Below are positions 12,992-37,221 of a DNA stretch of 64,000 nt, in pieces. Source of the stretch: an uncultured Oscillospiraceae bacterium. GTDB taxonomy: Bacteria > Bacillota > Clostridia > Peptostreptococcales > Anaerovoracaceae. The number at the start of each line of letters is the position of its first letter. The first letter of the stretch is position 1. A program made the position numbers and the translations under genes. Location of the stretch: NCBI GenBank assembly GCA_964345365.1, contig CAYFQR010000002.1, forward strand, positions 33 to 64,032, in the 5' to 3' direction. The notes under the pieces were generated by a model. That model saw nothing but the letters and a program-made list of their open reading frames with translations. It was not told where the DNA came from and did no database searches.

Positions 12992-13702
12992 CTATCCCAC
13001 TATAACCGACATCAGCCATACAACCGGCGGTGTTATAATAATCGATGTAACATTAAATATTATAAGTGCCATAAGTATCAAAGTGCCTCTTTGATATATA
13101 GGATACCACCAGCTGTATTTTCTAAGGTCGAATATCTGTGTTATTATACCCCAGCCGTCAAGCGGAGGGCAAGGTATCAGGTTGAATATCATCAGTACGA
13201 GGTTAATATATACCGTAAAGAACACCATGTCGAACAGGATTCCGTTTGCCATTGAGTTCTTAATCATAATCCTTGCAATAATTCCGAAGAACACGGCAAT
13301 CAGTAAATTGATTGTAACTCCCGCTATAGATACGATGAACTCGTCACGCCTTTTGTTCTTATAAAAATACGGGTTTATTTCAACAGGCTTTCCCCAGCCG
13401 AATCCCGCAATGATTATAAAAACCATACCTATGGGATCAATATGTGTCATAGGACTTATAGACAGTCTCCCTTGCGACTTCGGTGTCGGGTCACCCAATA
13501 AATGCGAAGCATAGGCATGCCCCGCCTCATGTAGCGATATTCCTATAATTATACCCGGGAGCAGAACCAACTTAGCATACAGCCAGGCGCCCGGATTACT
13601 CATGTTAAGCAATCTTTCTACAATGAGGATTGCAATAAAAACCCAGAATATCGGGTCCATTCTCCTGAAAAATCTTTTTATATCGTCGATTATTTTTCTC
13701 AT
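12992..13702 (-). CDS. Site-2 protease family (peptidase M50) membrane metalloprotease
   Basis: 236 aa, multi-transmembrane. HEAGHAYASH (HExxH) and NLIPCPPLDG motifs. Confidence 0.8.
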   Translation of the reverse strand: MRKIIDDIKRFFRRMDPIFWVFIAILIVERLLNMSNPGAWLYAKLVLLPGIIIGISLHEAGHAYASHLLGDPTPKSQGRLSISPMTHIDPIGMVFIIIAGFGWGKPVEINPYFYKNKRRDEFIVSIAGVTINLLIAVFFGIIARIMIKNSMANGILFDMVFFTVYINLVLMIFNLIPCPPLDGWGIITQIFDLRKYSWWYPIYQRGTLILMALIIFNVTSIIITPPVVWLMSVIVG

Positions 13703-13778: not shown

Positions 13779-14510
13779 TCAATAATAAAAGCCTCTTTTT
13801 ACATCGGAATATTCCTCAACCCTCGCCAAATACGCCTCCATCGCCGCCTCCTCATGTGCGAGCTTGGGTTCCTCTATCCCGATGCTCCTTAAAAGCATCT
13901 CGGTAAACGGAGGATTAAGCACCAGAAGCGGCCCGATTAAGTATGTCCCGATGAAGTTGTTTTTCTTTATCCCCTCTTCCGTAATTTCGGGGTTAAAACC
14001 TGAGCCTCGTTTTGTCATAAAAGCATAACACTCTTCGACGCCGGTATAGCAGCTATGTGAAAACTGTGATTTATATCCGACAATAATTGTATCGCCGTAC
14101 TTACCGGAATATTCTCCGAGATAGAGCGAATTAAATCTCTTCATAAGGTCAAGCTTCGCATATGTATTGAAGATACCGAGACACCTGAAGATTTCCCCGT
14201 CCGCAGATTCAATCCTGTCACCGAAGACTTCGATTGCATTTCCCGTTATCAAAAAATGCACGCCCAGCTCTATGAGCTCTCTTATTCTCTCCACATATTT
14301 TCCGAGTTTGTCCGTCACAAGACGCTGTGATGACTCCGACATCGTGCCCATATATATTAAGTCGGGCAGATTATTTGCAAAATACGGTTCTTCGGTCAGG
14401 TAATCCTCAACAACCTCAATCTCGTCCGAACATTTTTTTAGATAGCTTATATTCTCAAGGTCACCGTAAAGATTGGCGACCTCCGGAAACAATATTTCTA
14501 TTTTAATCAT
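13779..14510 (-). CDS. GatD-like CobQ-type amidotransferase homologue lacking the catalytic Cys and His (pair A)
   Basis: Collinear with S. aureus GatD as I recall it (NLYGD..., GTY.xGP). The nucleophile elbow reads LITGNAIEVFG instead of LTICGGYQFLG, and GTYLIGP replaces GTYLHGP. The ATG at 14508-14510 follows GGAGGG and overlaps the upstream stop by 8 nt. Confidence 0.75.
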   Translation of the reverse strand: MIKIEILFPEVANLYGDLENISYLKKCSDEIEVVEDYLTEEPYFANNLPDLIYMGTMSESSQRLVTDKLGKYVERIRELIELGVHFLITGNAIEVFGDRIESADGEIFRCLGIFNTYAKLDLMKRFNSLYLGEYSGKYGDTIIVGYKSQFSHSCYTGVEECYAFMTKRGSGFNPEITEEGIKKNNFIGTYLIGPLLVLNPPFTEMLLRSIGIEEPKLAHEEAAMEAYLARVEEYSDVKRGFYY

Positions 14511-15882
14511 TGAAGTCGCCCTCCTCAAGCCTTTTTTTAACCATATCGGCAACCTTTATTCCGAGTTCCAAAGAATCCGTTCCATAGAGAACAAATATAT
14601 TATCATTCTCAAAAAACTTCAATCTGTCCGGTGCATCGATTTCCTTTTCGGCGAATGAAAGACGGCTTTCATCTACGCCTGCGAGCAAAAGTCTGAGCTT
14701 ATGGTCGTGCCTTCTCGGGCCGCAGAGCACGATATTCTTAATATTATCTCTGTTAAGAAACTCGAAATCGCAGTCATAAAGCCAGCAGGTATTTTCACTC
14801 CAGTGTTTCATATCTCCCTGACATGAGTTCATCAGAATTATTTCCTTGTCGCCCGGCATCCCTGAAATATAATCAAAAACCCTCGTCGTAGCGAAAGCAT
14901 TTTTTTCTTTTGCGAGCATTCTGAACAGCTTCTTATCCCCGAATTGTTCTTCATCAAATCTCGACTCGACCAAGTTTACCCTTTCAAAAAATCCTTTTAT
15001 TTCTCCTGAGCCGTATCCGAGTTCAAACAAAAGCGTTATTACGGAAACTTGGTTATATATATTAAATATGCTGTCGTTCAAAAGGCGGTAACAGCCCGTT
15101 TCTGACGGCGTGTTCACGTCAATCGACATTCTGTCGGTGTCCGGGTTTTCCGCCGTATAATCGTATTCCGGAGACTTAAATCCGCAATTATCACAATAAG
15201 CCTTGCCGATATGATTATACCTCAGATACTCGTATTTCAACCTGTGGCTGCAAACGGGACAAACTTGAAAGTCATTTATAAGATTAATGCATTCCGTAAT
15301 GTCATTCTCAAGCCTGTTAACACCGTAATATACCCTCTTGTTTAACGGTGCTATTCTCGAAGATATAAGGTCATCAGCATTTAGAATGAGTATCGAATCC
15401 TCGGGTATATTATTTGACAGGAAATCGGCGATATATTCAGGGTGAGCATTTCTCATTATCGAATCTCTGCTTAGGTTTGTTACCAATATATATTCGGGCT
15501 TCAAGAAAGGAAATACCCTCTTCGCCGACCTCTCGTCAACCTCAAAAACTCCTATCTCGTATTTTTCCGAGCCGAAAATGCTCATTCCCTGCACGAGTGC
15601 CGTGGCAATTCCCGTGTCAATATTGGAACCCGCCGAGTTATTCAGAACTATTTTATTGTCAACTCTTAAAATGTCGGTTATCAGATTGGAACAAGTAGTC
15701 TTGCCGTTTGTACCGGTAACCGCAATTATTTTTTTCGGCTTTTTTGCATAGCTTAAGAATGACGGGCAGATCTTAAGTGCGACAATACCCGGGAAATTTG
15801 TCCCGTTATGTTTGGTTATCCTAAGTGCGACAATCGCAAGCTTAGCCGCCCAAAGCGCTATGATATATCTGATAAAGCCCAT
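14503..15882 (-). CDS. MurT-like Mur-ligase-family protein with a DUF1727-type C-terminal domain (pair A)
   Basis: VTGTNGKTT P-loop, FEVDE, TNLSRD, a Cys4 ribbon (CPVC...17 aa...CDNC) and a C-terminal WLYDCDFEFL...KLRLLLAGV segment. The start is set at ATG 15880-15882 (GGAGG RBS, TAATG overlap with the upstream stop). The resulting N-terminus matches paralogue B. Confidence 0.8.
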   Translation of the reverse strand: MGFIRYIIALWAAKLAIVALRITKHNGTNFPGIVALKICPSFLSYAKKPKKIIAVTGTNGKTTCSNLITDILRVDNKIVLNNSAGSNIDTGIATALVQGMSIFGSEKYEIGVFEVDERSAKRVFPFLKPEYILVTNLSRDSIMRNAHPEYIADFLSNNIPEDSILILNADDLISSRIAPLNKRVYYGVNRLENDITECINLINDFQVCPVCSHRLKYEYLRYNHIGKAYCDNCGFKSPEYDYTAENPDTDRMSIDVNTPSETGCYRLLNDSIFNIYNQVSVITLLFELGYGSGEIKGFFERVNLVESRFDEEQFGDKKLFRMLAKEKNAFATTRVFDYISGMPGDKEIILMNSCQGDMKHWSENTCWLYDCDFEFLNRDNIKNIVLCGPRRHDHKLRLLLAGVDESRLSFAEKEIDAPDRLKFFENDNIFVLYGTDSLELGIKVADMVKKRLEEGDFND

Positions 15883-16934
15883 TATTTTATCGCCTCCGTT
15901 ATGGATTTGTATGTTCCCTGTTTCAGCTTCAAATCTTGACAAAGGTCTTGTGACGGGTAGCTGTTTCCTTCAATCAGAAGAGGCCCGTGGTCCTCGGAGA
16001 TGCATACGTCCCATCCGACATAACCCACCTGCGGCACCAGATTGGCTGCTTCCTGAATCATGCCGAGAACTTCGTCCCATTTCGGAATTCGGAAACCCTT
16101 CAGCACCGTTCCTGAACCGGGTACTCTCTCGAACACATTTCTGTCTTTATCGAAACCGTCGGAAATGATTTCTCCCGTCTTAAAATCATAAATTGTAGAA
16201 ATACCGCCGTTATTGAAATTATCCACCACAGAACCGGGTTTACCCATCCTTATCCCGCCGGAAACTATTACAGCCTTGCCGTCTTTTAATATTGTGATAA
16301 CCCTAATGGTGTTCACGGAATCGGCGCTTAAGAGATTCATCGTCTTGTCCTGTTTCACCACTTCCTCCGCAAGCGGCTTATCATTATCTACGAGGTACAT
16401 ATAAAGCTCCTCGGTATCCCAATCCGAAACTTTAATCTTTTCGATACCTCTTCCGCAGCTCTCATGAAGAGGCTTGACCATTATATATTCTTTGCCTACA
16501 AGAAAAGCTTTGAAGGCTTCAGCATCGCTTCCCTCGACTCTGTCCGTTTCCTTAAGTGCAGTCCCTTTGATGTCTCCGAACATCTTCCCTTTGCCGAGGA
16601 CTATCCAGTCGCGCTTCATAAAGCTGTTGAATTTTTTGTTAAAAATCGCCTTGTCCTCGAAATACTGTATATATCTCCTGTCGTTGAACCTTTTGAAGAT
16701 CTTGTTATTCTTGCCGAGTGTGAGGATTTCATCCCTCTCCTTATGGTTTTTATTGTACATCTCAAAAAACTCATAATCGACATGGCCCGAGCCGTACCTG
16801 AGCGTACAGTAAAATATGTCCCGACGTACCGCCCTCCACGATTTCCCCGTTTTAGCGGCTATCCTCTTTGCCGTTTCATCGAACCTCGACAAGTCTGTTG
16901 TTTTAAGTTTTTTAATGTAGAAGCTAAGATTCAT
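15882..16934 (-). CDS. ATP-grasp fold ligase (resembles the sugar-transfer-associated ATP-grasp / RimK-related amino-acid ligase family)
   Basis: 350 aa. The C-terminal half (IMVKPLHESCGRGI..., NFNNGGI, VGYVGWDVCISEDHGPLLIEGNSYP) is typical of an ATP-grasp fold. ATGA overlap with the upstream gene. Confidence 0.7.
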   Translation of the reverse strand: MNLSFYIKKLKTTDLSRFDETAKRIAAKTGKSWRAVRRDIFYCTLRYGSGHVDYEFFEMYNKNHKERDEILTLGKNNKIFKRFNDRRYIQYFEDKAIFNKKFNSFMKRDWIVLGKGKMFGDIKGTALKETDRVEGSDAEAFKAFLVGKEYIMVKPLHESCGRGIEKIKVSDWDTEELYMYLVDNDKPLAEEVVKQDKTMNLLSADSVNTIRVITILKDGKAVIVSGGIRMGKPGSVVDNFNNGGISTIYDFKTGEIISDGFDKDRNVFERVPGSGTVLKGFRIPKWDEVLGMIQEAANLVPQVGYVGWDVCISEDHGPLLIEGNSYPSQDLCQDLKLKQGTYKSITEAIK

Positions 16935-17647
16935 GTAAGTGTTCTCCTCAATTCGTTAAGTCTGTAATTATATGCCTCAATGATGTTTTTTTCAAACGCT
17001 ATCTCATCATTGAGTCCCATAAGTCTCAAGAGATATTTGACAAAATACGGGTTAAAGATGAGATATGGCCCGAGAGAGTACGTGGCAAAGAAATTATTGA
17101 CATGAATCCCCTCTCTCCCGGTTTCCGGATTCATCCCGATTCCCGTTTCAATTTTCAAAAAATAATCCTTAAACTCACCGTAGCTGAAGCTGAATTGGCT
17201 CCGGTGCCCGAGCAGCGTCATGTCTTCAAACGTCGCTATATACTGCGAATTATGCCTCGGCAAATCCATATTCCTCACGGAATAAAAATCAAACAACCCG
17301 AGTGCGGGCACTTCTTTTATCAAATTGCCCGACAAGTCATTTTCTTTTATTAGATTCCCGAATATTTCGATTGCATTGCCCGTTACCAAAAATATGGTGC
17401 CGGCAGCTATCGCCGCCTCTATCTCGCCTCGATACCCCCTCAAAAGCTCTATCGTCTTTTCCTGATGTCTTTCCGTCATGCATCCGATATAGACCATATC
17501 GGCATCTGCTGTGAGGAACCTCGGCTTTTCGAGATGATGTGTCATGATAACCTCAAGCTCGTCGCTGCTTTTTTTGAGATATTCGATATTGTAACATTCA
17601 CCGTAGATATTGGTAAACTCAGGATAAATAAATTCAATCTTTTTCAA
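16931..17647 (-). CDS. GatD-like CobQ-type amidotransferase homologue lacking the catalytic Cys and His (pair B)
   Basis: 238 aa. Has FLVTGNAIEIFG at the nucleophile elbow and ATYSLGP at the His position. TTG start in a TTGA overlap with the upstream stop, preceded by an AAGGGGG RBS. Confidence 0.75.
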   Translation of the reverse strand: MKKIEFIYPEFTNIYGECYNIEYLKKSSDELEVIMTHHLEKPRFLTADADMVYIGCMTERHQEKTIELLRGYRGEIEAAIAAGTIFLVTGNAIEIFGNLIKENDLSGNLIKEVPALGLFDFYSVRNMDLPRHNSQYIATFEDMTLLGHRSQFSFSYGEFKDYFLKIETGIGMNPETGREGIHVNNFFATYSLGPYLIFNPYFVKYLLRLMGLNDEIAFEKNIIEAYNYRLNELRRTLT

Positions 17648-19002
17648 CTGTTTGCCCCCTTCGCATATTCTACGATGCTGTCACGCATATTTTTCGCCTT
17701 GGTAACATAATCAATTTCAAAAAGCACATATACTTTATCTATTCCTTCCCTGTCCACATGCTGCGGAATATCAGCCTCCTCCTCAACCGCCACAATCTTT
17801 TCCTCTGGCACTCCTGCGAGGAGCAGCCTCAGCTTATGATTGAGAAACATGTGTCCGCCCACCACAATCTTCTTGATATGCGGGCGATTCAAAAACTCAT
17901 AGTCGGTTTCATAAAGCCATGAAATCGTTTCGGTCGGATGATGTCTATCCTGCACCTCGTCCATAAGAAGAACCACATTTTTGTCGGACGGCTCGTCTGC
18001 CATATATTCGAATACCGTAGCAGCCGCCGAAACATTCTGCGATTTAGCCGCATAAGCAAAATATTCTATCCCGTTATACGTTACCGACGACTCTCTGATA
18101 TCCGTTATCTTCTGCCTTTGCATAAACTCCGAAATAACACCCATCTCATAGCCAAGTTCCAGAAAAAGAGCCGCTGCGGTAAGCACGTTGAAGCAGTTGA
18201 ACATCGTATCCGAAATCAGAGGCACGGTTTCTCCGTTCAATGTCATCGTTTTATTTAAGAGGTCTATATTTTTTGCGAGATATTTGCTCTCGGGAGTCTT
18301 GAAATCACAGCTCTCGCAGTGATATTTTCCTATATGTCTGTAGAGTCTGTAATCGTATTTTATCTTGCCGTCGCATACGGGACAGACTGAAATATCCCTC
18401 GAAATATTCGGCAGCGGTCTGAAACTGTCATCATCGATACCGAAAAATACCCTTTCAATATTTTTGGCAAGCCCGATTGAAATCGGGTCATTGGCATTTA
18501 ATATCGCCTTTGCGCCTTTTTTTGACATCCTCATGCACTTTTCCATGTGATTGAAGATGTTCTCGGGATGCCCGTTTCGTCTTAAACTGTCCTTGCATAT
18601 ATTGGTTACAACTATGTAATCCGGCTTAAGCTTCACCATCTCCGTATCCATCGAAAGCTCATCCGCCTCAAGCACCGAGCAGTCCACCTGCGGCTTGTTG
18701 AAAATATTCACTCCCCTGATGAGATTAACGGCAAACCCCGCCATGAGATTTGCACCCCAGTCGTTAAAAGAAGTCGACAGTCCCCGCTCGCTCAAAAAAT
18801 CGTTCACAAGCACGGATGTCGTAGTCTTGCCGTTTGTGCCTGTAATGGCTATCGTGAGCTTCGGTTTAGAAACAATTTCTAAAAAATCCGGACAAATCTT
18901 ACACGCCAGGAGCCCCGGCATATCCGTCTTCGGTGTGCCTCTGAGCTTATAGAATAACATCATCATTTTCGCTCCCCACAGAGCGATAAAAAATCTGAGC
19001 AT
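17644..19002 (-). CDS. MurT-like Mur-ligase-family protein with a DUF1727-type C-terminal domain (pair B)
   Basis: 452 aa. ITGTNGKTT, LEADE, TNICKD, a Cys4 ribbon (CPVC...17 aa...CESC) and SWLYETDYEFL...KLRLLLAGV. GGGAG RBS. It starts 10 nt after the cls stop. Confidence 0.8.
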   Translation of the reverse strand: MLRFFIALWGAKMMMLFYKLRGTPKTDMPGLLACKICPDFLEIVSKPKLTIAITGTNGKTTTSVLVNDFLSERGLSTSFNDWGANLMAGFAVNLIRGVNIFNKPQVDCSVLEADELSMDTEMVKLKPDYIVVTNICKDSLRRNGHPENIFNHMEKCMRMSKKGAKAILNANDPISIGLAKNIERVFFGIDDDSFRPLPNISRDISVCPVCDGKIKYDYRLYRHIGKYHCESCDFKTPESKYLAKNIDLLNKTMTLNGETVPLISDTMFNCFNVLTAAALFLELGYEMGVISEFMQRQKITDIRESSVTYNGIEYFAYAAKSQNVSAAATVFEYMADEPSDKNVVLLMDEVQDRHHPTETISWLYETDYEFLNRPHIKKIVVGGHMFLNHKLRLLLAGVPEEKIVAVEEEADIPQHVDREGIDKVYVLFEIDYVTKAKNMRDSIVEYAKGANS

Positions 19003-19012
19003 ATTGCACTCC

Positions 19013-20488
19013 CTAAAGTATCTCGGTGAGAAGCCTTGAGATACTCTCCTTGAATCTTACAAAAATCGGACGTTTATTATAATCTTCCATTGTCAGTTCA
19101 CGGCTGTTCTTCATATCTTCCTCAAAGGATTTTACCATTTGCTCCGTAAATTCCTTATCGAAGATAAATGCATTTGTTTCAAAATTCAGCTTAAACGACC
19201 TTATGTCGAAGTTACATGAACCTATGGACGTGACCTCCCCGTCCGCAAATATCGCTTTTGCATGCAGGAAACCTCCGTCATAGATGAACACCCTGCATCC
19301 GTCCTTGAGCAGCTCTCCCACATTGGAAAGGGTCGCCCAATATACGAAAATATGGTCAGGCTTATTCGGTATCATTATGTTGACTTTAACTCCCGATTGC
19401 GATGCCATCTTGCATGACTCTATAATCGATGCGTCCGGAACGAAATAAGGAGATTGAATATATACGGAATCCGTAGCAGCGGTAATCATCTTCATGAAAC
19501 CGCGCTTGATTTCCTGCTTTGGAGCTTCAGGCCCGCATGAAACGATTTGCAGTCCCATATCGCCGGCAACCTCGGTATTGATACGCCCCGCATCAAGCAA
19601 ATCGAGCTTCTCCTTAGTTACGAAACGCCAATCGAGAATGAATCTCGTGTTAAGCTCGTTCACTCCCGTTCCCCTGATTCTCACGTGTGAATCACGCCAA
19701 TGTCCGAATTTCGGTGCCAAATCACAATATTCGTTGCCGATATTATATCCGCCCGTATACCCTATTTTGTTGTCGACCACCAGAATCTTTCTGTGGTTTC
19801 GGTAGTTGAGGTTAAGCCCTATCTTTATCCCCATCCTTGCCAATCTCGGAGGGAAAAAATATGCCACCTTGCCGCCTGCTTTAATATATTCTCTGAGCAC
19901 TAAGTTATTCAAACCTCTTGAGCCGAGAGAGTCTACGAGCAGCCGAACTTCCACGCCTTCTCTCGCTTTCTCCGTCAGCGCCGCTATGAAACGCTTGGCT
20001 GTCTTATCATTTTTGATTATAAAATATTCCGCATTAACGGACGTTTCGGCATTTCTTATATCTTCAAGCATCCTGTCAAACAGCTCATTCCCGTCCACGA
20101 TGAGTTCTATATCATTCGTTTCGCTATATATGGCATTGCCGTAAACCTGATTCAGTATTACCAAATCCCTCCACTTGTATGCGGAGTAGTTATCAAGCCT
20201 GAGTTTCCCTTCCTCCAGCTCTTTAATCTGATAATCGAGATAGCCTCTTATAACGCTTTCCTCGTTATCATAGAGTTTGTTTATCTTGATTCGGGTAAGG
20301 TTCTGATTAAAAATCAAGTATAGTATGAACCCCAACACCGGAACAAACGCCAAAACCATAATCCACGCCAAAGTAGCAGTCGATGTTTTTCTCTCGAAGA
20401 ATATGACTGCCACGATTAATATGAAGTTTATTCCATATACCACCATTGTAGAGGATATATAGCCAAGCGGCGTTTCCATTTCAAACAT
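19013..20488 (-). CDS. cls: Cardiolipin synthase (PLD family)
   Basis: 491 aa. Two N-terminal transmembrane helices and two HKD motifs (NHRKILVVDN..., FLHAKAIFADG...). Confidence 0.9.
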   Translation of the reverse strand: MFEMETPLGYISSTMVVYGINFILIVAVIFFERKTSTATLAWIMVLAFVPVLGFILYLIFNQNLTRIKINKLYDNEESVIRGYLDYQIKELEEGKLRLDNYSAYKWRDLVILNQVYGNAIYSETNDIELIVDGNELFDRMLEDIRNAETSVNAEYFIIKNDKTAKRFIAALTEKAREGVEVRLLVDSLGSRGLNNLVLREYIKAGGKVAYFFPPRLARMGIKIGLNLNYRNHRKILVVDNKIGYTGGYNIGNEYCDLAPKFGHWRDSHVRIRGTGVNELNTRFILDWRFVTKEKLDLLDAGRINTEVAGDMGLQIVSCGPEAPKQEIKRGFMKMITAATDSVYIQSPYFVPDASIIESCKMASQSGVKVNIMIPNKPDHIFVYWATLSNVGELLKDGCRVFIYDGGFLHAKAIFADGEVTSIGSCNFDIRSFKLNFETNAFIFDKEFTEQMVKSFEEDMKNSRELTMEDYNKRPIFVRFKESISRLLTEIL

Positions 20489-35934: not shown

Positions 35935-37221
35935 TTATGACTGTCGGAGTATGCTCCTTGCCGCTCCGATGAAGTAAAGTGAGCCTGTAAACAATATTAA
36001 CTCATACTCTTCTTTTAATCCTATTGCCTTTTTCACGGCATCTCTGCAGTCATCAACAGCTTCAACCCTTGCTCCCTTTGCTTCAAGCTTCTTTTTCAGT
36101 TCCTCCGCTTCCATTTTGCGTGAATTTTCGGGCTCTGTCGCAATAAAATCACTTGCTATGGACGTTAATTGCTCTATTATTTCGTCGGTATCCTTATCCT
36201 TTAACATTCCCGTAACAATGAGAGTTTTTTTATCCGGAGCATATCTTAAGACTGTGTCAACAAGCATGTGTGCCCCGTCCGCGTTATGTGCACCGTCGAT
36301 GACGATAAGCGGTTCTCTTTTCATTATTTCGAATCTGCCTATCTGTTTGGCTCTTAAAAATCCTTCAAGAACCGCTTTTCTGCTTATCTTAAAGTCGGTG
36401 GTCACCTCATATATTGCAAGAGCCGCCAAAGCTGCAACCGCATTTTCAACTTGATGCCTGCCCGCCATGCCGATCCTCAGATTTTCGACATTGACGCCTT
36501 GAATCAGAACGTCCATTAGTGTGCCGTCTATCGATTCCTCTTTGATGTTGACAGGAAGGTTTTTTGTGAAAAAGAACAGCGAGCCTTCTTCTTTTGCCTT
36601 TTCTTCGATTACCGCAAGAGCCTCCTCATCCTTTACGGAAGTAACTACGGGACAGCCTTTTTTGGTAATACCCGCCTTGTTCGCCGCTATCTCCGAAAGC
36701 GTATTCCCGAGCCTGTCCATATGGTCGTATGAAATAGAGCTTATGACGGAAACCACAGGGTTCTTTATGATATTGGTGGAGTCGCCGATTCCGCCGAGTC
36801 CCACTTCAAGCACCACATAATCGGCTTTTTTTTCTTTGAAATAAAGAAAAGCCACAGCGGTTATTACTTCAAATTCAGTCGGAGAATCCTCTCCCCTGTC
36901 TGTGAGTATTTTTACTTTTTCAAGAACTGTGTCCGTGTACTTTTCCAAGTCTTCATCCGAGATAAATGCATGGTCAAACTCTATCCTCTCATTAAAAACT
37001 TCAAGAAAAGGAGATGTATACAAGCCTGTTTTGAAGCCTTCCGCTTGAAGCGCCTCATAAATATACTTACATACGGAGCCCTTGCCGTTCGTGCCCGCCA
37101 CATGAAAACATTTCAGTTCATCCTGGGGATTCCCGAGCTCAGCCATAAGCGAGGTCATTCTCTCAAGACCGAGTATGCTCCCGAACTTCTCAAATTCGTG
37201 TATTTTATCTATCGCGTTCAT
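35935..37221 (-). CDS. folC: Bifunctional folylpolyglutamate synthase / dihydrofolate synthase
   Basis: 428 aa Mur-ligase-fold protein with HVAGTNGKGS P-loop and FolC core motifs. Confidence 0.88.
   Translation of the reverse strand: MNAIDKIHEFEKFGSILGLERMTSLMAELGNPQDELKCFHVAGTNGKGSVCKYIYEALQAEGFKTGLYTSPFLEVFNERIEFDHAFISDEDLEKYTDTVLEKVKILTDRGEDSPTEFEVITAVAFLYFKEKKADYVVLEVGLGGIGDSTNIIKNPVVSVISSISYDHMDRLGNTLSEIAANKAGITKKGCPVVTSVKDEEALAVIEEKAKEEGSLFFFTKNLPVNIKEESIDGTLMDVLIQGVNVENLRIGMAGRHQVENAVAALAALAIYEVTTDFKISRKAVLEGFLRAKQIGRFEIMKREPLIVIDGAHNADGAHMLVDTVLRYAPDKKTLIVTGMLKDKDTDEIIEQLTSIASDFIATEPENSRKMEAEELKKKLEAKGARVEAVDDCRDAVKKAIGLKEEYELILFTGSLYFIGAARSILRQS

What the first reader, a model, noticed from the sequence alone, without database searches (positions are those of the whole stretch)
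15882..16934. ATP-grasp ligase wedged between the two MurT/GatD-like pairs by start/stop overlaps
Seen in sequence:
- The ORF is 350 aa. Its C-terminal half carries ATP-grasp hallmarks (MVKPLHESCGRGI, NFNNGGI, GWDVCISEDHGPLLIEGNSYP).
- Its N-terminal ~110 aa are basic and helical.
- Its ATG overlaps the upstream stop (ATGA), and its TAA overlaps the downstream ATG (TAATG).

Established knowledge: the family it resembles (sugar-transfer-associated ATP-grasp, RimK-related) is predicted to ligate amino acids in cell-surface polymer pathways, but it has few characterised members.

Inference:
- Stoichiometric co-expression with the MurT-like ligases implies a shared pathway.
- One possibility is that this enzyme adds a residue whose carboxylates are then capped or extended by the MurT-like enzymes.
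Basis: partly seen in the sequence, partly recalled or inferred. Interest (0 to 1): 0.65.

Follow-up and report, generated by a model that had tools for sequence, protein, structure and literature searches.

The report
ATP-grasp ligase partnered with glutaminase-dead MurT/GatD pairs
A real ATP-dependent amide-bond-forming enzyme sits in a conserved three-to-five-gene module with cell-wall-type (MurT-like) ligases whose "glutaminase" partners have lost every catalytic residue. This points to an uncharacterised pathway in gut and rumen Clostridia that probably decorates cell-wall peptides with something other than a simple amide.

Summary
A 350-aa ORF lies at 15882..16934 on the minus strand, with the quoted motifs and the ATGA and TAATG overlaps. 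It belongs to PF14397 (ATPgrasp_ST, E=3e-47), keeps the invariant ATP/Mg residues, and models confidently as an ATP-grasp with a helical, basic N-terminal domain.

Co-occurrence holds in both directions:
- Every testable genome locus of its clade has a MurT-like/GatD-like pair next to it.
- 21 of 21 testable metagenome loci of the GatD-like-1 type have a PF14397 gene adjacent, on either strand and in varied flanking contexts.

Cys94, His189, the oxyanion glycines and MurT Asp349 are all replaced, in every member and in the 150 top cluster representatives. The MurT-like ligase residues are intact. The pairs therefore cannot perform glutamine-dependent amidation.

One related locus inserts a diaminobutyrate transaminase and an ornithine-racemase-like gene into the module; another inserts an NlpC/P60 peptidase.

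Best reading (about 0.4): a ligase set that builds a non-ammonia substituent or branch on peptidoglycan stem-peptide carboxylates. Rivals are free-ammonia amidation plus a bridge residue, or a non-wall polyamide. No literature describes this module. Interest is moderately high.

The parts
15882..16934 (-). ATP-grasp ligase (the finding): 350 aa, PF14397 ATPgrasp_ST. A helical, basic N-terminal domain (residues 1-108) is followed by the ATP-grasp core.
   Evidence: Pfam E=3.3e-47. NCBIfam gives only TIGR02291, at 53 bits against a cutoff of 314. Invariant K154, E190, R229, D238/N239, D309, E322, N324 in 84 homologues. AF2 pLDDT 92.5. Foldseek top hits are RimK, ArgX/LysX, YwfE/BacD, Ddl, PsnB and GshB, all at <=16% identity.
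17644..19002 (-). MurT-like ligase 1 (452 aa): Mur_ligase_M + MurT_C with a Cys4 zinc ribbon. The ligase residues are kept; the glutaminase-triad Asp is lost.
   Evidence: Pfam PF08245 and PF08353. NCBIfam MurT equivalogs score 146 and 127 bits against a cutoff of 800. S. aureus MurT 6gs2/7q8e match at E about 1e-38. K59, E108, R298, K315 and N316 are kept in 20/20 orthologues; D349 is Thr in 20/20.
16931..17647 (-). GatD-like 1 (238 aa, TTG start): the GatD fold is retained but it is a pseudo-glutaminase.
   Evidence: PF07685 at 32 bits. GatD equivalogs score 45 bits against a cutoff of 450. Cys94->Gly, Gly95->Asn, His189->Leu, Gly60->Cys, with Arg128 kept. AF2 pLDDT 91.4; best PDB match is S. 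aureus GatD 5n9m at TM 0.81.
14503..15882 (-). MurT-like ligase 2 (459 aa, ATG at 15882): a paralogue 35-38% identical to MurT-like 1.
   Evidence: Pfam PF08245 and PF08353. MurT equivalog scores 187 bits against a cutoff of 800. Ligase residues are kept in 8/8 orthologues; D349->Asn in 8/8.
13779..14510 (-). GatD-like 2 (243 aa, ATG at 14510): the second pseudo-glutaminase.
   Evidence: PF07685 at 26.7 bits, just under the cutoff of 27. Cys94->Gly and His189->Ile. The junction ATGATTAA overlaps the MurT-like 2 stop.

Best explanation
The ORF encodes an active ATP-grasp carboxylate-amine ligase. It is the third constant component of a self-contained module, alongside one or two MurT-derived Mur-type ligases. 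Each MurT-like ligase is paired with a GatD-derived subunit that keeps the GatD fold but has lost the whole glutaminase active site.

Proposed mechanism:
1. The MurT-like ligases use ATP to activate a carboxylate of the lipid-linked peptidoglycan stem peptide. By analogy with MurT, this would be the alpha-carboxyl of D-iso-glutamate.
2. They couple it to an amine that is not glutamine-derived ammonia, most plausibly an amino acid or diamino acid.
3. The GatD-like partner serves as a structural subunit, and possibly as a ligand-binding one.
4. The ATP-grasp enzyme performs a further ATP-dependent amide ligation in the same pathway, either adding or extending a residue of that side branch.
5. 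The second pair, where present, adds a further ligation.

Shown: family membership, intact ligase and ATP-grasp catalytic residues, complete loss of the glutaminase triad, and tight bidirectional gene linkage across lineages and gene orders.

Inferred: the substrate (peptidoglycan precursor), the identity of the amine, and the order of steps.
For: 1. The ATP-grasp is real and looks competent.
- PF14397 E=3e-47; invariant ATP/Mg residues.
- Confident model; the nearest folds are all amide or peptide ligases.

2. Linkage to the MurT-like/GatD-like pairs.
- Of the 80 genome loci, the 23 with >=43% identity form one NJ clade together with the window's own gene (24 sequences). All that extend far enough have a MurT-like/GatD-like pair beside the ATP-grasp.
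- Flanking genes differ between lineages, so only these three families are constant.
- In the reverse direction, 21 of 21 testable metagenome loci of the GatD-like-1 type have a PF14397 gene adjacent, on either strand. Seven further loci pair divergent dead-GatD types with PF14397 genes that are only 28-37% identical to the window's.
- Brotomerdimonas butyrica has pair, then ATP-grasp on the opposite strand, then pair.

3. The glutaminase is dead.
- In all 33 GatD-like proteins of the window and linked genome loci, Cys94 is Gly (once Ser) and His189 is Leu/Ile/Val/Thr. In the window's two copies and most others the oxyanion positions Gly60 and Gly95 are also replaced; Arg128 is kept in 32 of 33.
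- MurT Asp349 is Thr (class 1, 20/20) or Asn (class 2, 8/8).
- C94G, C94A, H189A and D349N abolish glutamine-dependent activity in S. aureus (PMC3266927; PMC5871853; PMC6113224).
- The dead family is large and under selection: 241 clusters at E<=1e-30. All top 150 lack the canonical pairing of CGG and HGP motifs, and they share new conserved motifs.

4. The ligase core of the MurT-likes is intact: K59, E108, R298, K315 and N316 in 31/31, and the Cys4 ribbon is visible in every aligned sequence.

5. Hints to substrate.
- The nearest solved relative of the MurT-likes is the lipid II enzyme MurT (E=1e-38).
- L163 reads, with 8-9 nt gaps: EctB-type diaminobutyrate transaminase (565 bits against a cutoff of 552), MurT-like, dead GatD, Orr-like racemase, ATPgrasp_ST.
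- The same transaminase precedes MurT-like/dead-GatD pairs in L115 and L167.
- L023 has an NlpC/P60 peptidase between GatD-like and ATP-grasp.
- Unlinked sister-clade ATP-grasps sit in murA-spoIID-M23 or Mur-ligase neighbourhoods.
Against: - There is no direct evidence for the substrate. Nothing in the window itself names peptidoglycan; the module lies in a long housekeeping array next to cls and an M50 protease.
- The diaminobutyrate/racemase context is seen in one lineage only (3 loci), and the NlpC/P60 insertion in one locus.
- Münch et al. showed that a C94G GatD still supports NH3-dependent lipid II amidation, so a dead GatD does not by itself require a new nucleophile.
- Many dead-GatD/MurT-like pairs occur without any ATP-grasp nearby (29 loci, mostly one human-gut lineage). 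The pair therefore functions alone, and the ATP-grasp step is an add-on of unknown chemistry.
- I could not test whether the host genomes also carry a canonical murT/gatD.
- Pfam's own annotation of PF14397 points to polysaccharide rather than peptide substrates.
Confidence: 0.4

Rival explanations
1. Ammonia-dependent capping plus a bridge residue (essentially the first reader's idea). The MurT-like ligases still amidate stem-peptide carboxylates but take free NH3 from the ammonia-rich gut or rumen. The GatD-like protein is kept only as the structural partner MurT needs. The ATP-grasp adds an acidic cross-bridge residue, in the manner of the D-aspartate ligase Aslfm of enterococci, and the second pair then amidates that residue's free carboxyl.
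For: - S. aureus MurT with GatD-C94G keeps NH3-dependent activity, and MurT needs its partner for activity (PMC3266927).
- The natural substitution here is the same Cys->Gly.
- The fold and the C-terminal MurT-contact helix of GatD are retained.
- Carriers come from rumen and gut samples.
- Stand-alone dead pairs are common, which fits a simple self-sufficient reaction.
- Two pairs would fit two different carboxylates.
Against: - NH3-dependent activity in S. aureus needed pH 8.5.
- Simple decay would not be expected to leave new strictly conserved motifs (TGN[AS]xE, RHNSQ, GHRSQFS) across the dead-GatD family, nor class-specific replacements of D349 and the DNAAD region.
- The Dab transaminase and Orr-like racemase inside the L163 module suggest a diamino-acid substrate rather than ammonia.
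- No aspartate or glutamate racemase is linked.
Confidence: 0.25
2. The product is not peptidoglycan. The module would be a split, cyanophycin-synthetase-like machine (ATP-grasp plus Mur-type ligases) making a cytoplasmic or secreted branched polyamide or a small peptide, for example a diaminobutyrate-containing compound.
For: - The combination of an ATP-grasp with a Mur-ligase-type enzyme is the architecture of cyanophycin synthetase. There are weak NCBIfam hits of the MurT-likes to cphA models (23-34 bits).
- The top structural neighbours of the ATP-grasp include RimK, L-amino-acid ligases and PsnB.
- Amino-acid supply genes are present in L163, and aminotransferases and GS-III flank the pair in L088.
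- The module contains no membrane or wall gene.
Against: - The MurT-likes are far closer to lipid II MurT than to CphA, FolC or CapB (E=1e-38 against roughly 1e-6). They keep the MurT-specific Cys4 ribbon, the MurT_C domain and the GatD partner.
- No exporter, hydrolase (cyanophycinase), precursor peptide or regulator is conserved beside the module.
- No riboswitch or T-box was found.
Confidence: 0.2
3. The target is a cell-surface glycopolymer, following the Pfam label 'sugar-transfer associated'. The ATP-grasp amidates a uronic-acid carboxyl of a wall polysaccharide or teichuronic-type polymer, and the MurT-likes act on the same polymer.
For: - The Pfam family description.
- The family is related to other sugar-carboxylate amidoligases (my own knowledge, not tested here).
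Against: - No glycosyltransferase, flippase or sugar-nucleotide gene lies next to the module in any of the contexts examined.
- The partners are peptide-stem ligase homologues.
Confidence: 0.1
4. The adjacency is inherited synteny with no functional link. The ATP-grasp acts in an unrelated housekeeping process.
For: - Within Anaerovoracaceae the whole region (der-plsY-gpsA-miaB-cls-module-M50) is syntenic.
- Sister-clade ATP-grasps exist without MurT-like neighbours.
Against: - The trio persists with unrelated flanks, on either strand and in several gene orders. It also persists with ATP-grasps only 28-37% identical to the window's.
- Reverse co-occurrence is 21/21.
Confidence: 0.03

Closest known systems
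MurT/GatD lipid II isoglutaminyl synthase (S. aureus, S. pneumoniae, M. tuberculosis)
   Same: - Two overlapping genes.
- MurT-like protein with Mur_ligase_M + MurT_C domains, a GTNGKT P-loop, E108, and a Cys4 zinc ribbon.
- Partner with the GatD fold, including the C-terminal helix (TM 0.81 to 5n9m).
-.
   Different: - The inter-subunit triad (GatD C94, H189; MurT D349) and the oxyanion glycines are all replaced.
- Scores are far below the NCBIfam equivalog cutoffs (127-187 against 800; 31-60 against 400-450).
- The DNAAD region is remodelled.
- The pair is often duplicated.
- It is obligately linked (type 1) to a PF14397 ATP-grasp.
-.
D-aspartate ligase Aslfm/AslA with its racemase, followed by AsnH amidation (enterococci, lactococci). 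Recalled from my own knowledge.
   Same: An ATP-grasp enzyme adds a side-chain or bridge residue to the stem peptide. It is genetically paired with a racemase (compare L163), and the added residue's carboxyl is later amidated.
   Different: - Family membership of Aslfm in PF14397 was not tested here.
- The racemase in L163 is Orr-like (alanine-racemase fold), not an aspartate racemase.
- The partner ligases are MurT-derived, not AsnB-type.
Cyanophycin synthetase CphA1
   Same: Uses one ATP-grasp and one Mur-ligase-type active site to build a branched polyamide.
   Different: - CphA1 is a single fused polypeptide with an N-domain.
- The MurT-likes score only 23-34 bits against a cutoff of about 850.
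- CphA1 has no GatD-like subunit.
RimK and the TIGR02291 'alpha-L-glutamate ligase-like' proteins
   Same: RimK is the best structural neighbour (5zct, 4iwx) and TIGR02291 is the only NCBIfam hit. All share ATP-grasp amide-ligase chemistry.
   Different: - 53 bits against a cutoff of 314; 13-15% identity.
- A helical N-terminal domain of about 108 aa replaces the usual alpha/beta pre-ATP-grasp domain.
Pseudo-glutaminase subunits (catalytically dead class I GATase homologues)
   Same: The fold is retained while the nucleophile and base are lost, and the protein is kept as a partner of a synthetase.
   Different: I found no published description of dead GatD paralogues. Here the dead form defines a large family (at least 150 clusters at 50% identity).

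Membership tests
Pfam PF14397 ATPgrasp_ST | Profile HMM score above the gathering threshold | tested here: met
   161.4 bits against 31.4, E=3.3e-47, residues 76-333.
ATP-grasp superfamily (active ligase) | ATP-grasp fold with the ATP-binding Lys, hinge Glu and Mg-binding Asp/Glu/Asn | tested here: met
   AF2 pLDDT 92.5. Foldseek probability 1.00 to RimK, LysX, Ddl and GshB. K154, E190, D309, E322 and N324 are invariant in 84 sequences. Assignment of roles to these residues is by analogy.
TIGR02291 alpha-L-glutamate ligase-like (RimK-related) | Score above the NCBIfam cutoff | tested here: not met
   53 bits against a cutoff of 314.2.
MurT (lipid II isoglutaminyl synthase subunit), applied to the two neighbouring ligases | Mur_ligase_M + MurT_C architecture with P-loop, E108 and Cys4 ribbon | tested here: met
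MurT (lipid II isoglutaminyl synthase subunit) | Equivalog-level score, and Asp349 completing the GatD triad | tested here: not met
   146-187 bits against a cutoff of 800. D349 is Thr (20/20) or Asn (8/8). D349N abolishes glutamine-dependent lipid II amidation in vitro in S. aureus (PMC6113224).
GatD / class I glutamine amidotransferase | Overall fold with the extra C-terminal helix | tested here: met
   AF2 pLDDT 91.4; TM 0.81 to 5n9m/6gs2.
GatD / class I glutamine amidotransferase | Catalytic Cys94 and His189, and oxyanion Gly60/Gly95 | tested here: not met
   In the window's copies these are Gly, Leu/Ile, Cys/Thr and Asn respectively. Cys94 and His189 are absent from all 33 linked proteins, all 90 metagenome GatD-like segments lack the CGG and HGP motifs, and the canonical motif pair is absent from all top-150 cluster representatives.
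Cyanophycin synthetase | Equivalog score; fused ATP-grasp and Mur-type domains | tested here: not met
   23-30 bits against cutoffs of 850-877; the proteins are separate.
D-aspartate ligase (Aslfm-type) cross-bridge enzymes | Sequence family membership; UDP-MurNAc-pentapeptide acceptor | not testable with these tools
Anti-phage defence systems (PADLOC) | Any model hit | tested here: not met
   No hit for any of the five proteins.

The most novel reading that the evidence does not exclude
MurT-derived ligases have swapped ammonia for an amino-acid or diamino-acid nucleophile (for example D/L-diaminobutyrate, ornithine or lysine). Their former glutaminase has been converted into a non-catalytic, possibly amino-acid-presenting subunit: the Gln-sequestering Arg128 is kept in 32 of 33 proteins. 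The PF14397 ATP-grasp extends the resulting branch.

This would identify the long-unassigned enzymes that substitute the alpha-carboxyl of D-glutamate in peptidoglycan (type-B-style bridges, or amino-acid substituents in the Schleifer-Kandler scheme). It would also reveal an unrecognised wall chemotype in abundant gut and rumen Clostridia.
Probability: 0.3. Interest if true: 0.85.

Novelty: new variant of a known kind. Interest (0 to 1): 0.66.

Why it matters
- If the module modifies the peptidoglycan stem peptide, it defines a new branch of wall biosynthesis built from recycled MurT/GatD parts plus an ATP-grasp. It occurs in very prevalent gut and rumen anaerobes: the Brotomerdimonas GatD-like protein is indexed in 800 blocks of the public assembly collection.
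- Substituents on D-iso-glutamate govern cross-linking, lysozyme and antibiotic susceptibility, and recognition of muropeptides by host NOD receptors (my own knowledge).
- It gives a concrete, testable candidate for how amino acids become attached to the D-Glu alpha-carboxyl.
- It supplies the first functional context for PF14397.
- It flags that 'MurT/GatD' or 'glutamine amidotransferase' annotations in Clostridia are frequently wrong at the level of chemistry, because the glutaminase is dead in a family of at least 150 clusters at 50% identity.

Tried and rejected
- PDB sequence search with the ATP-grasp found nothing significant.
- Literature searches found nothing describing this module. 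Terms tried: PF14397/ATPgrasp_ST; MurT+GatD+ATP-grasp; MurT paralogues; type-B peptidoglycan + MurT; pseudo-glutaminase; DUF1727; Anaerovoracaceae peptidoglycan; M. luteus glycine substitution. The only MurT+ATP-grasp papers concern archaeal pseudomurein.
- A search for a conserved fourth partner by clustering flanking ORFs found none. cls and the M50 protease are lineage-restricted synteny, and other flanks are unrelated housekeeping genes.
- A search for riboswitch or T-box leaders that might name the amino acid found none in 17 related loci or in the window.
- PADLOC defence models gave no hits.
- The promoter/terminator scan was uninformative. There is no convincing terminator inside the module, and one promoter-like site lies just upstream of the ATP-grasp.
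- I considered the GatD-like-1 Cys at the Gly60 position as a migrated nucleophile. I do not adopt this, because His189 and D349 are also gone and GatD-like 2 lacks that Cys.
Full report
**1. The observation**

The ORF 15882..16934 exists, on the minus strand, with an ATG start and 350 aa. The three quoted motifs are at residues 152, 239 and 307. Read on the minus strand, its ATG overlaps the TGA of the upstream gene (ATGA). Its TAA overlaps the ATG of the downstream gene (TAATG), which sets that gene's start at 15882.

The other two internal junctions also overlap: TTGA for MurT-like1/GatD-like1 and ATGATTAA for MurT-like2/GatD-like2 (GatD-like2 starts at 14510). Residues 1-110 are basic (pI 9.9). 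In a confident AlphaFold2 model they are all-helical (pLDDT 92.5). GC content of the five genes (0.415-0.450) matches the window (0.442), so the module is native.

**2. What the ORF is**

- Pfam assigns it to PF14397 ATPgrasp_ST (161 bits against a cutoff of 31.4, E=3.3e-47).
- The only NCBIfam hit is TIGR02291 (RimK-related), far below its cutoff (53 against 314).
- No PDB chain matches by sequence.
- By fold, the nearest structures are RimK, ArgX/LysX, the L-amino-acid ligases YwfE/BacD, Ddl, PsnB and GshB, all at <=16% identity and TMq <=0.45. These are amide or peptide ligases.
- In 84 homologues the residues expected for ATP/Mg binding are invariant: K154, E190, D309, E322, N324. So are R229 and D238/N239.
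- The helical N-terminal domain is conserved across the family (D39, D53, Y54, N76 invariant) although it lies mostly outside the Pfam model.

It is therefore a bona fide, probably active, uncharacterised ATP-grasp ligase.

**3. The neighbours are not ordinary MurT/GatD**

The flanking ligases have the MurT architecture: Mur_ligase_M + MurT_C, a P-loop, and a Cys4 ribbon. Their closest solved relative is S. aureus MurT (E about 1e-38). However, they score 127-187 bits against MurT equivalog cutoffs of 800.

The GatD-like partners align to S. aureus GatD with the following substitutions. This is seen with phmmer, MAFFT and hhalign (98.7% probability):

| S. aureus GatD residue | GatD-like proteins here |
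|---|---|
| Cys94 | Gly |
| Gly95 | Asn |
| His189 | Leu or Ile |
| Gly60 | Cys or Thr |
| Arg128 | kept |

The GatD-like1 model (pLDDT 91.4) superposes best on GatD 5n9m/6gs2 (TM 0.81), including the C-terminal helix.

In the MurT-likes the ligase residues K59, E108, R298, K315 and N316 are conserved in 31/31 sequences. Asp349, the third member of the inter-subunit triad, is Thr in 20/20 class-1 proteins and Asn in 8/8 class-2 proteins.

The literature establishes the consequences of such changes in S. aureus:
- C94G, C94A and H189A abolish glutaminase or glutamine-dependent amidation.
- R128A abolishes glutaminase activity.
- D349N abolishes or severely reduces lipid II amidation in vitro.
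- Sources: PMC3266927, PMC5871853, PMC6113224, PMC6085368.

These pairs therefore cannot perform glutamine-dependent amidation.

The dead form is not a local accident. A profile of it finds 241 clusters (at 50% identity) with E<=1e-30 and 875 with E<=1e-10. Essentially all of the top 150 carry the TGN-type motif and none keeps the canonical pairing of CGG and HGP motifs. Four are MurT-like::GatD-like fusions. Strong conservation of new motifs (TGN[AS]xE, RHNSQ, GHRSQFS) indicates purifying selection on a non-glutaminase role.

**4. Co-occurrence**

*Forward direction.* A scan of one genome per species returned 80 loci. The 23 with >=43% identity to the window's ATP-grasp form one neighbour-joining clade together with the window's own gene. 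All that extend far enough have a MurT-like-1/GatD-like-1 pair beside the ATP-grasp. The 57 more distant loci do not, with one exception 8 kb away.

Gene-order strings show that only these three families are constant; flanks vary widely. The second pair is present in the window, L001, L009, L010, L012, L019, L022, L023 and L086/87. L020 has pair-pair-ATPgrasp, and L013 has ATPgrasp-pair.

*Reverse direction.* In a metagenome scan with the dead-GatD profile, 21 of 21 testable GatD-like-1-type loci have a PF14397 gene adjacent. It lies on either strand, and the second pair may be co-directional or convergent. Seven loci of other dead-GatD types have PF14397 genes only 28-37% identical to the window's. 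Twenty-nine loci, mostly one human-gut lineage, have a lone pair.

So:
- The pair is a stand-alone unit in many Clostridia.
- The ATP-grasp is an obligatory add-on for type 1 and a recurrent add-on elsewhere.
- The translational coupling seen in this window is not the conserved feature.

Cultured carriers are Mobilibacterium timonense (L014) and Brotomerdimonas butyrica.

**5. Clues to chemistry**

- In L163 the module reads, with 8-9 nt gaps: EctB-type diaminobutyrate-2-oxoglutarate transaminase (TIGR02407, 565 bits against a cutoff of 552), MurT-like, dead GatD, Orr-like PLP racemase (345 bits, below its cutoff of 480), ATPgrasp_ST.
- The same transaminase (68-70% identity) directly precedes MurT-like/dead-GatD pairs in L115 and L167.
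- In L023 a membrane-anchored NlpC/P60 protein lies between GatD-like1 and the ATP-grasp. That family includes gamma-D-glutamyl endopeptidases (my own knowledge).
- Unlinked sister-clade ATP-grasps sit in spoIIR-murA-[ATP-grasp]-rpiB-spoIID-M23 or tig-[ATP-grasp]-lon-Mur-ligase neighbourhoods.

These are circumstantial. Together they point to the cell-wall peptide and to a (di)amino acid, possibly in the D-form, as the incoming amine.

**6. Mechanism**

Best-supported model (confidence about 0.4): the MurT-like ligases activate a stem-peptide carboxylate on the lipid-linked precursor. By analogy this is the alpha-carboxyl of D-iGlu. They couple it to an amine other than glutamine-derived ammonia. 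The GatD-like subunit is a structural partner, possibly a ligand-binding one. The ATP-grasp performs a further amide ligation on the same branch. A second pair adds another step.

Rivals:
- Ammonia-dependent amidation with a vestigial GatD, plus an Aslfm-like bridge ligase (0.25). This is supported by the retained NH3-dependent activity of the C94G complex.
- A non-wall, cyanophycin-like polyamide or peptide (0.2).
- A glycopolymer target, as the Pfam name suggests (0.1).
- Mere synteny (0.03).

**7. Comparison with known systems, and novelty**

The system works most like MurT/GatD combined with an ATP-grasp side-chain ligase. It fails the defining catalytic features of GatD and the equivalog thresholds of MurT, GatD, TIGR02291 and CphA. 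No paper in the searchable library describes PF14397 function, dead GatD paralogues, or this gene combination. I rate it a new variant of a known kind.

**8. Negative results**

- No riboswitch or T-box.
- No defence-system hits.
- No conserved fourth partner.
- No informative terminators.
- Presence of a canonical murT/gatD elsewhere in carrier genomes could not be tested.

**9. Verdict**

Interest is 0.66. The finding turns an old open question, namely which enzymes put amino acids on the D-Glu alpha-carboxyl, into a directly testable one in two cultured species. The substrate itself remains inferred.

Noticed in passing
L163:4390-9824: The module is expanded by an EctB-type diaminobutyrate transaminase upstream and an ornithine-racemase-like PLP enzyme between GatD-like and ATP-grasp, with 8-9 nt gaps. 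The same transaminase also precedes MurT-like/dead-GatD pairs in L115 and L167.
   Followed up: partly
L023:9238-9981: A membrane-anchored coiled-coil NlpC/P60 protein (PF00877, E=4e-14) is inserted between GatD-like1 and the ATP-grasp gene. This was seen in one locus only.
   Followed up: partly
P0249, P0272, P0294, P0371 (representative library): Proteins of about 700-760 aa are natural fusions of a MurT-like ligase (with P-loop) and a C-terminal dead GatD-like domain. This is consistent with an obligate complex.
   Followed up: partly
window 16931-17647 (GatD-like1) and its orthologues: GatD-like-1 proteins carry a Cys at the position of oxyanion Gly60 (Y[ILM]GC..E) in all but one divergent sequence (L013). 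GatD-like-2 proteins have Thr, Gly or Ala there. Its significance is unknown.
   Followed up: no
window 16967-16995 (- strand): A promoter-like site (TTGAAA, 17 nt spacer, TATAAT; 11/12 matches) lies inside the 3' end of GatD-like1, about 30 nt upstream of the ATP-grasp ATG. It could be an internal promoter. This is a consensus match only.
   Followed up: no
window 15882-16934, residues ~114-135: An insertion of about 20 residues (GKGKMFGDIKGTALKETDRVEG) occurs only in the aligned close relatives of the window's ATP-grasp (62-77% identity) and is absent from the aligned homologues at <=52% identity.
   Followed up: no
L024-L080; L081:5250-11307: Sister-clade PF14397 genes without MurT-like neighbours sit in a conserved spoIIR-murA-rpmE-[ATP-grasp]-rpiB-DUF1146-spoIID-M23 array in Bacilli and 'Tenericutes'-labelled MAGs, or between tig and lon next to a Mur ligase.
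   Followed up: partly
window 19013-20488 and 12992-13702: A cardiolipin synthase lies immediately upstream (10-nt gap) and an M50-type membrane protease downstream. This arrangement is conserved only within Anaerovoracaceae-like loci (11 and 10 loci respectively), so it is lineage synteny rather than part of the module.
   Followed up: yes
L117-L151 (human-gut metagenome contigs): A very common human-gut lineage carries a lone MurT-like/dead-GatD pair with no ATP-grasp within 7 kb. In L119 it lies between aspS and a WXG100/FtsK-type (type VII secretion-like) cluster.
   Followed up: partly
window 35935-37221: Another Mur-ligase-family gene (FolC-like by eye, 428 aa) lies in the same window and is unrelated to the module. 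The rest of the window is housekeeping: purine and pyrimidine biosynthesis, valS, smc, ftsY, der.
   Followed up: no
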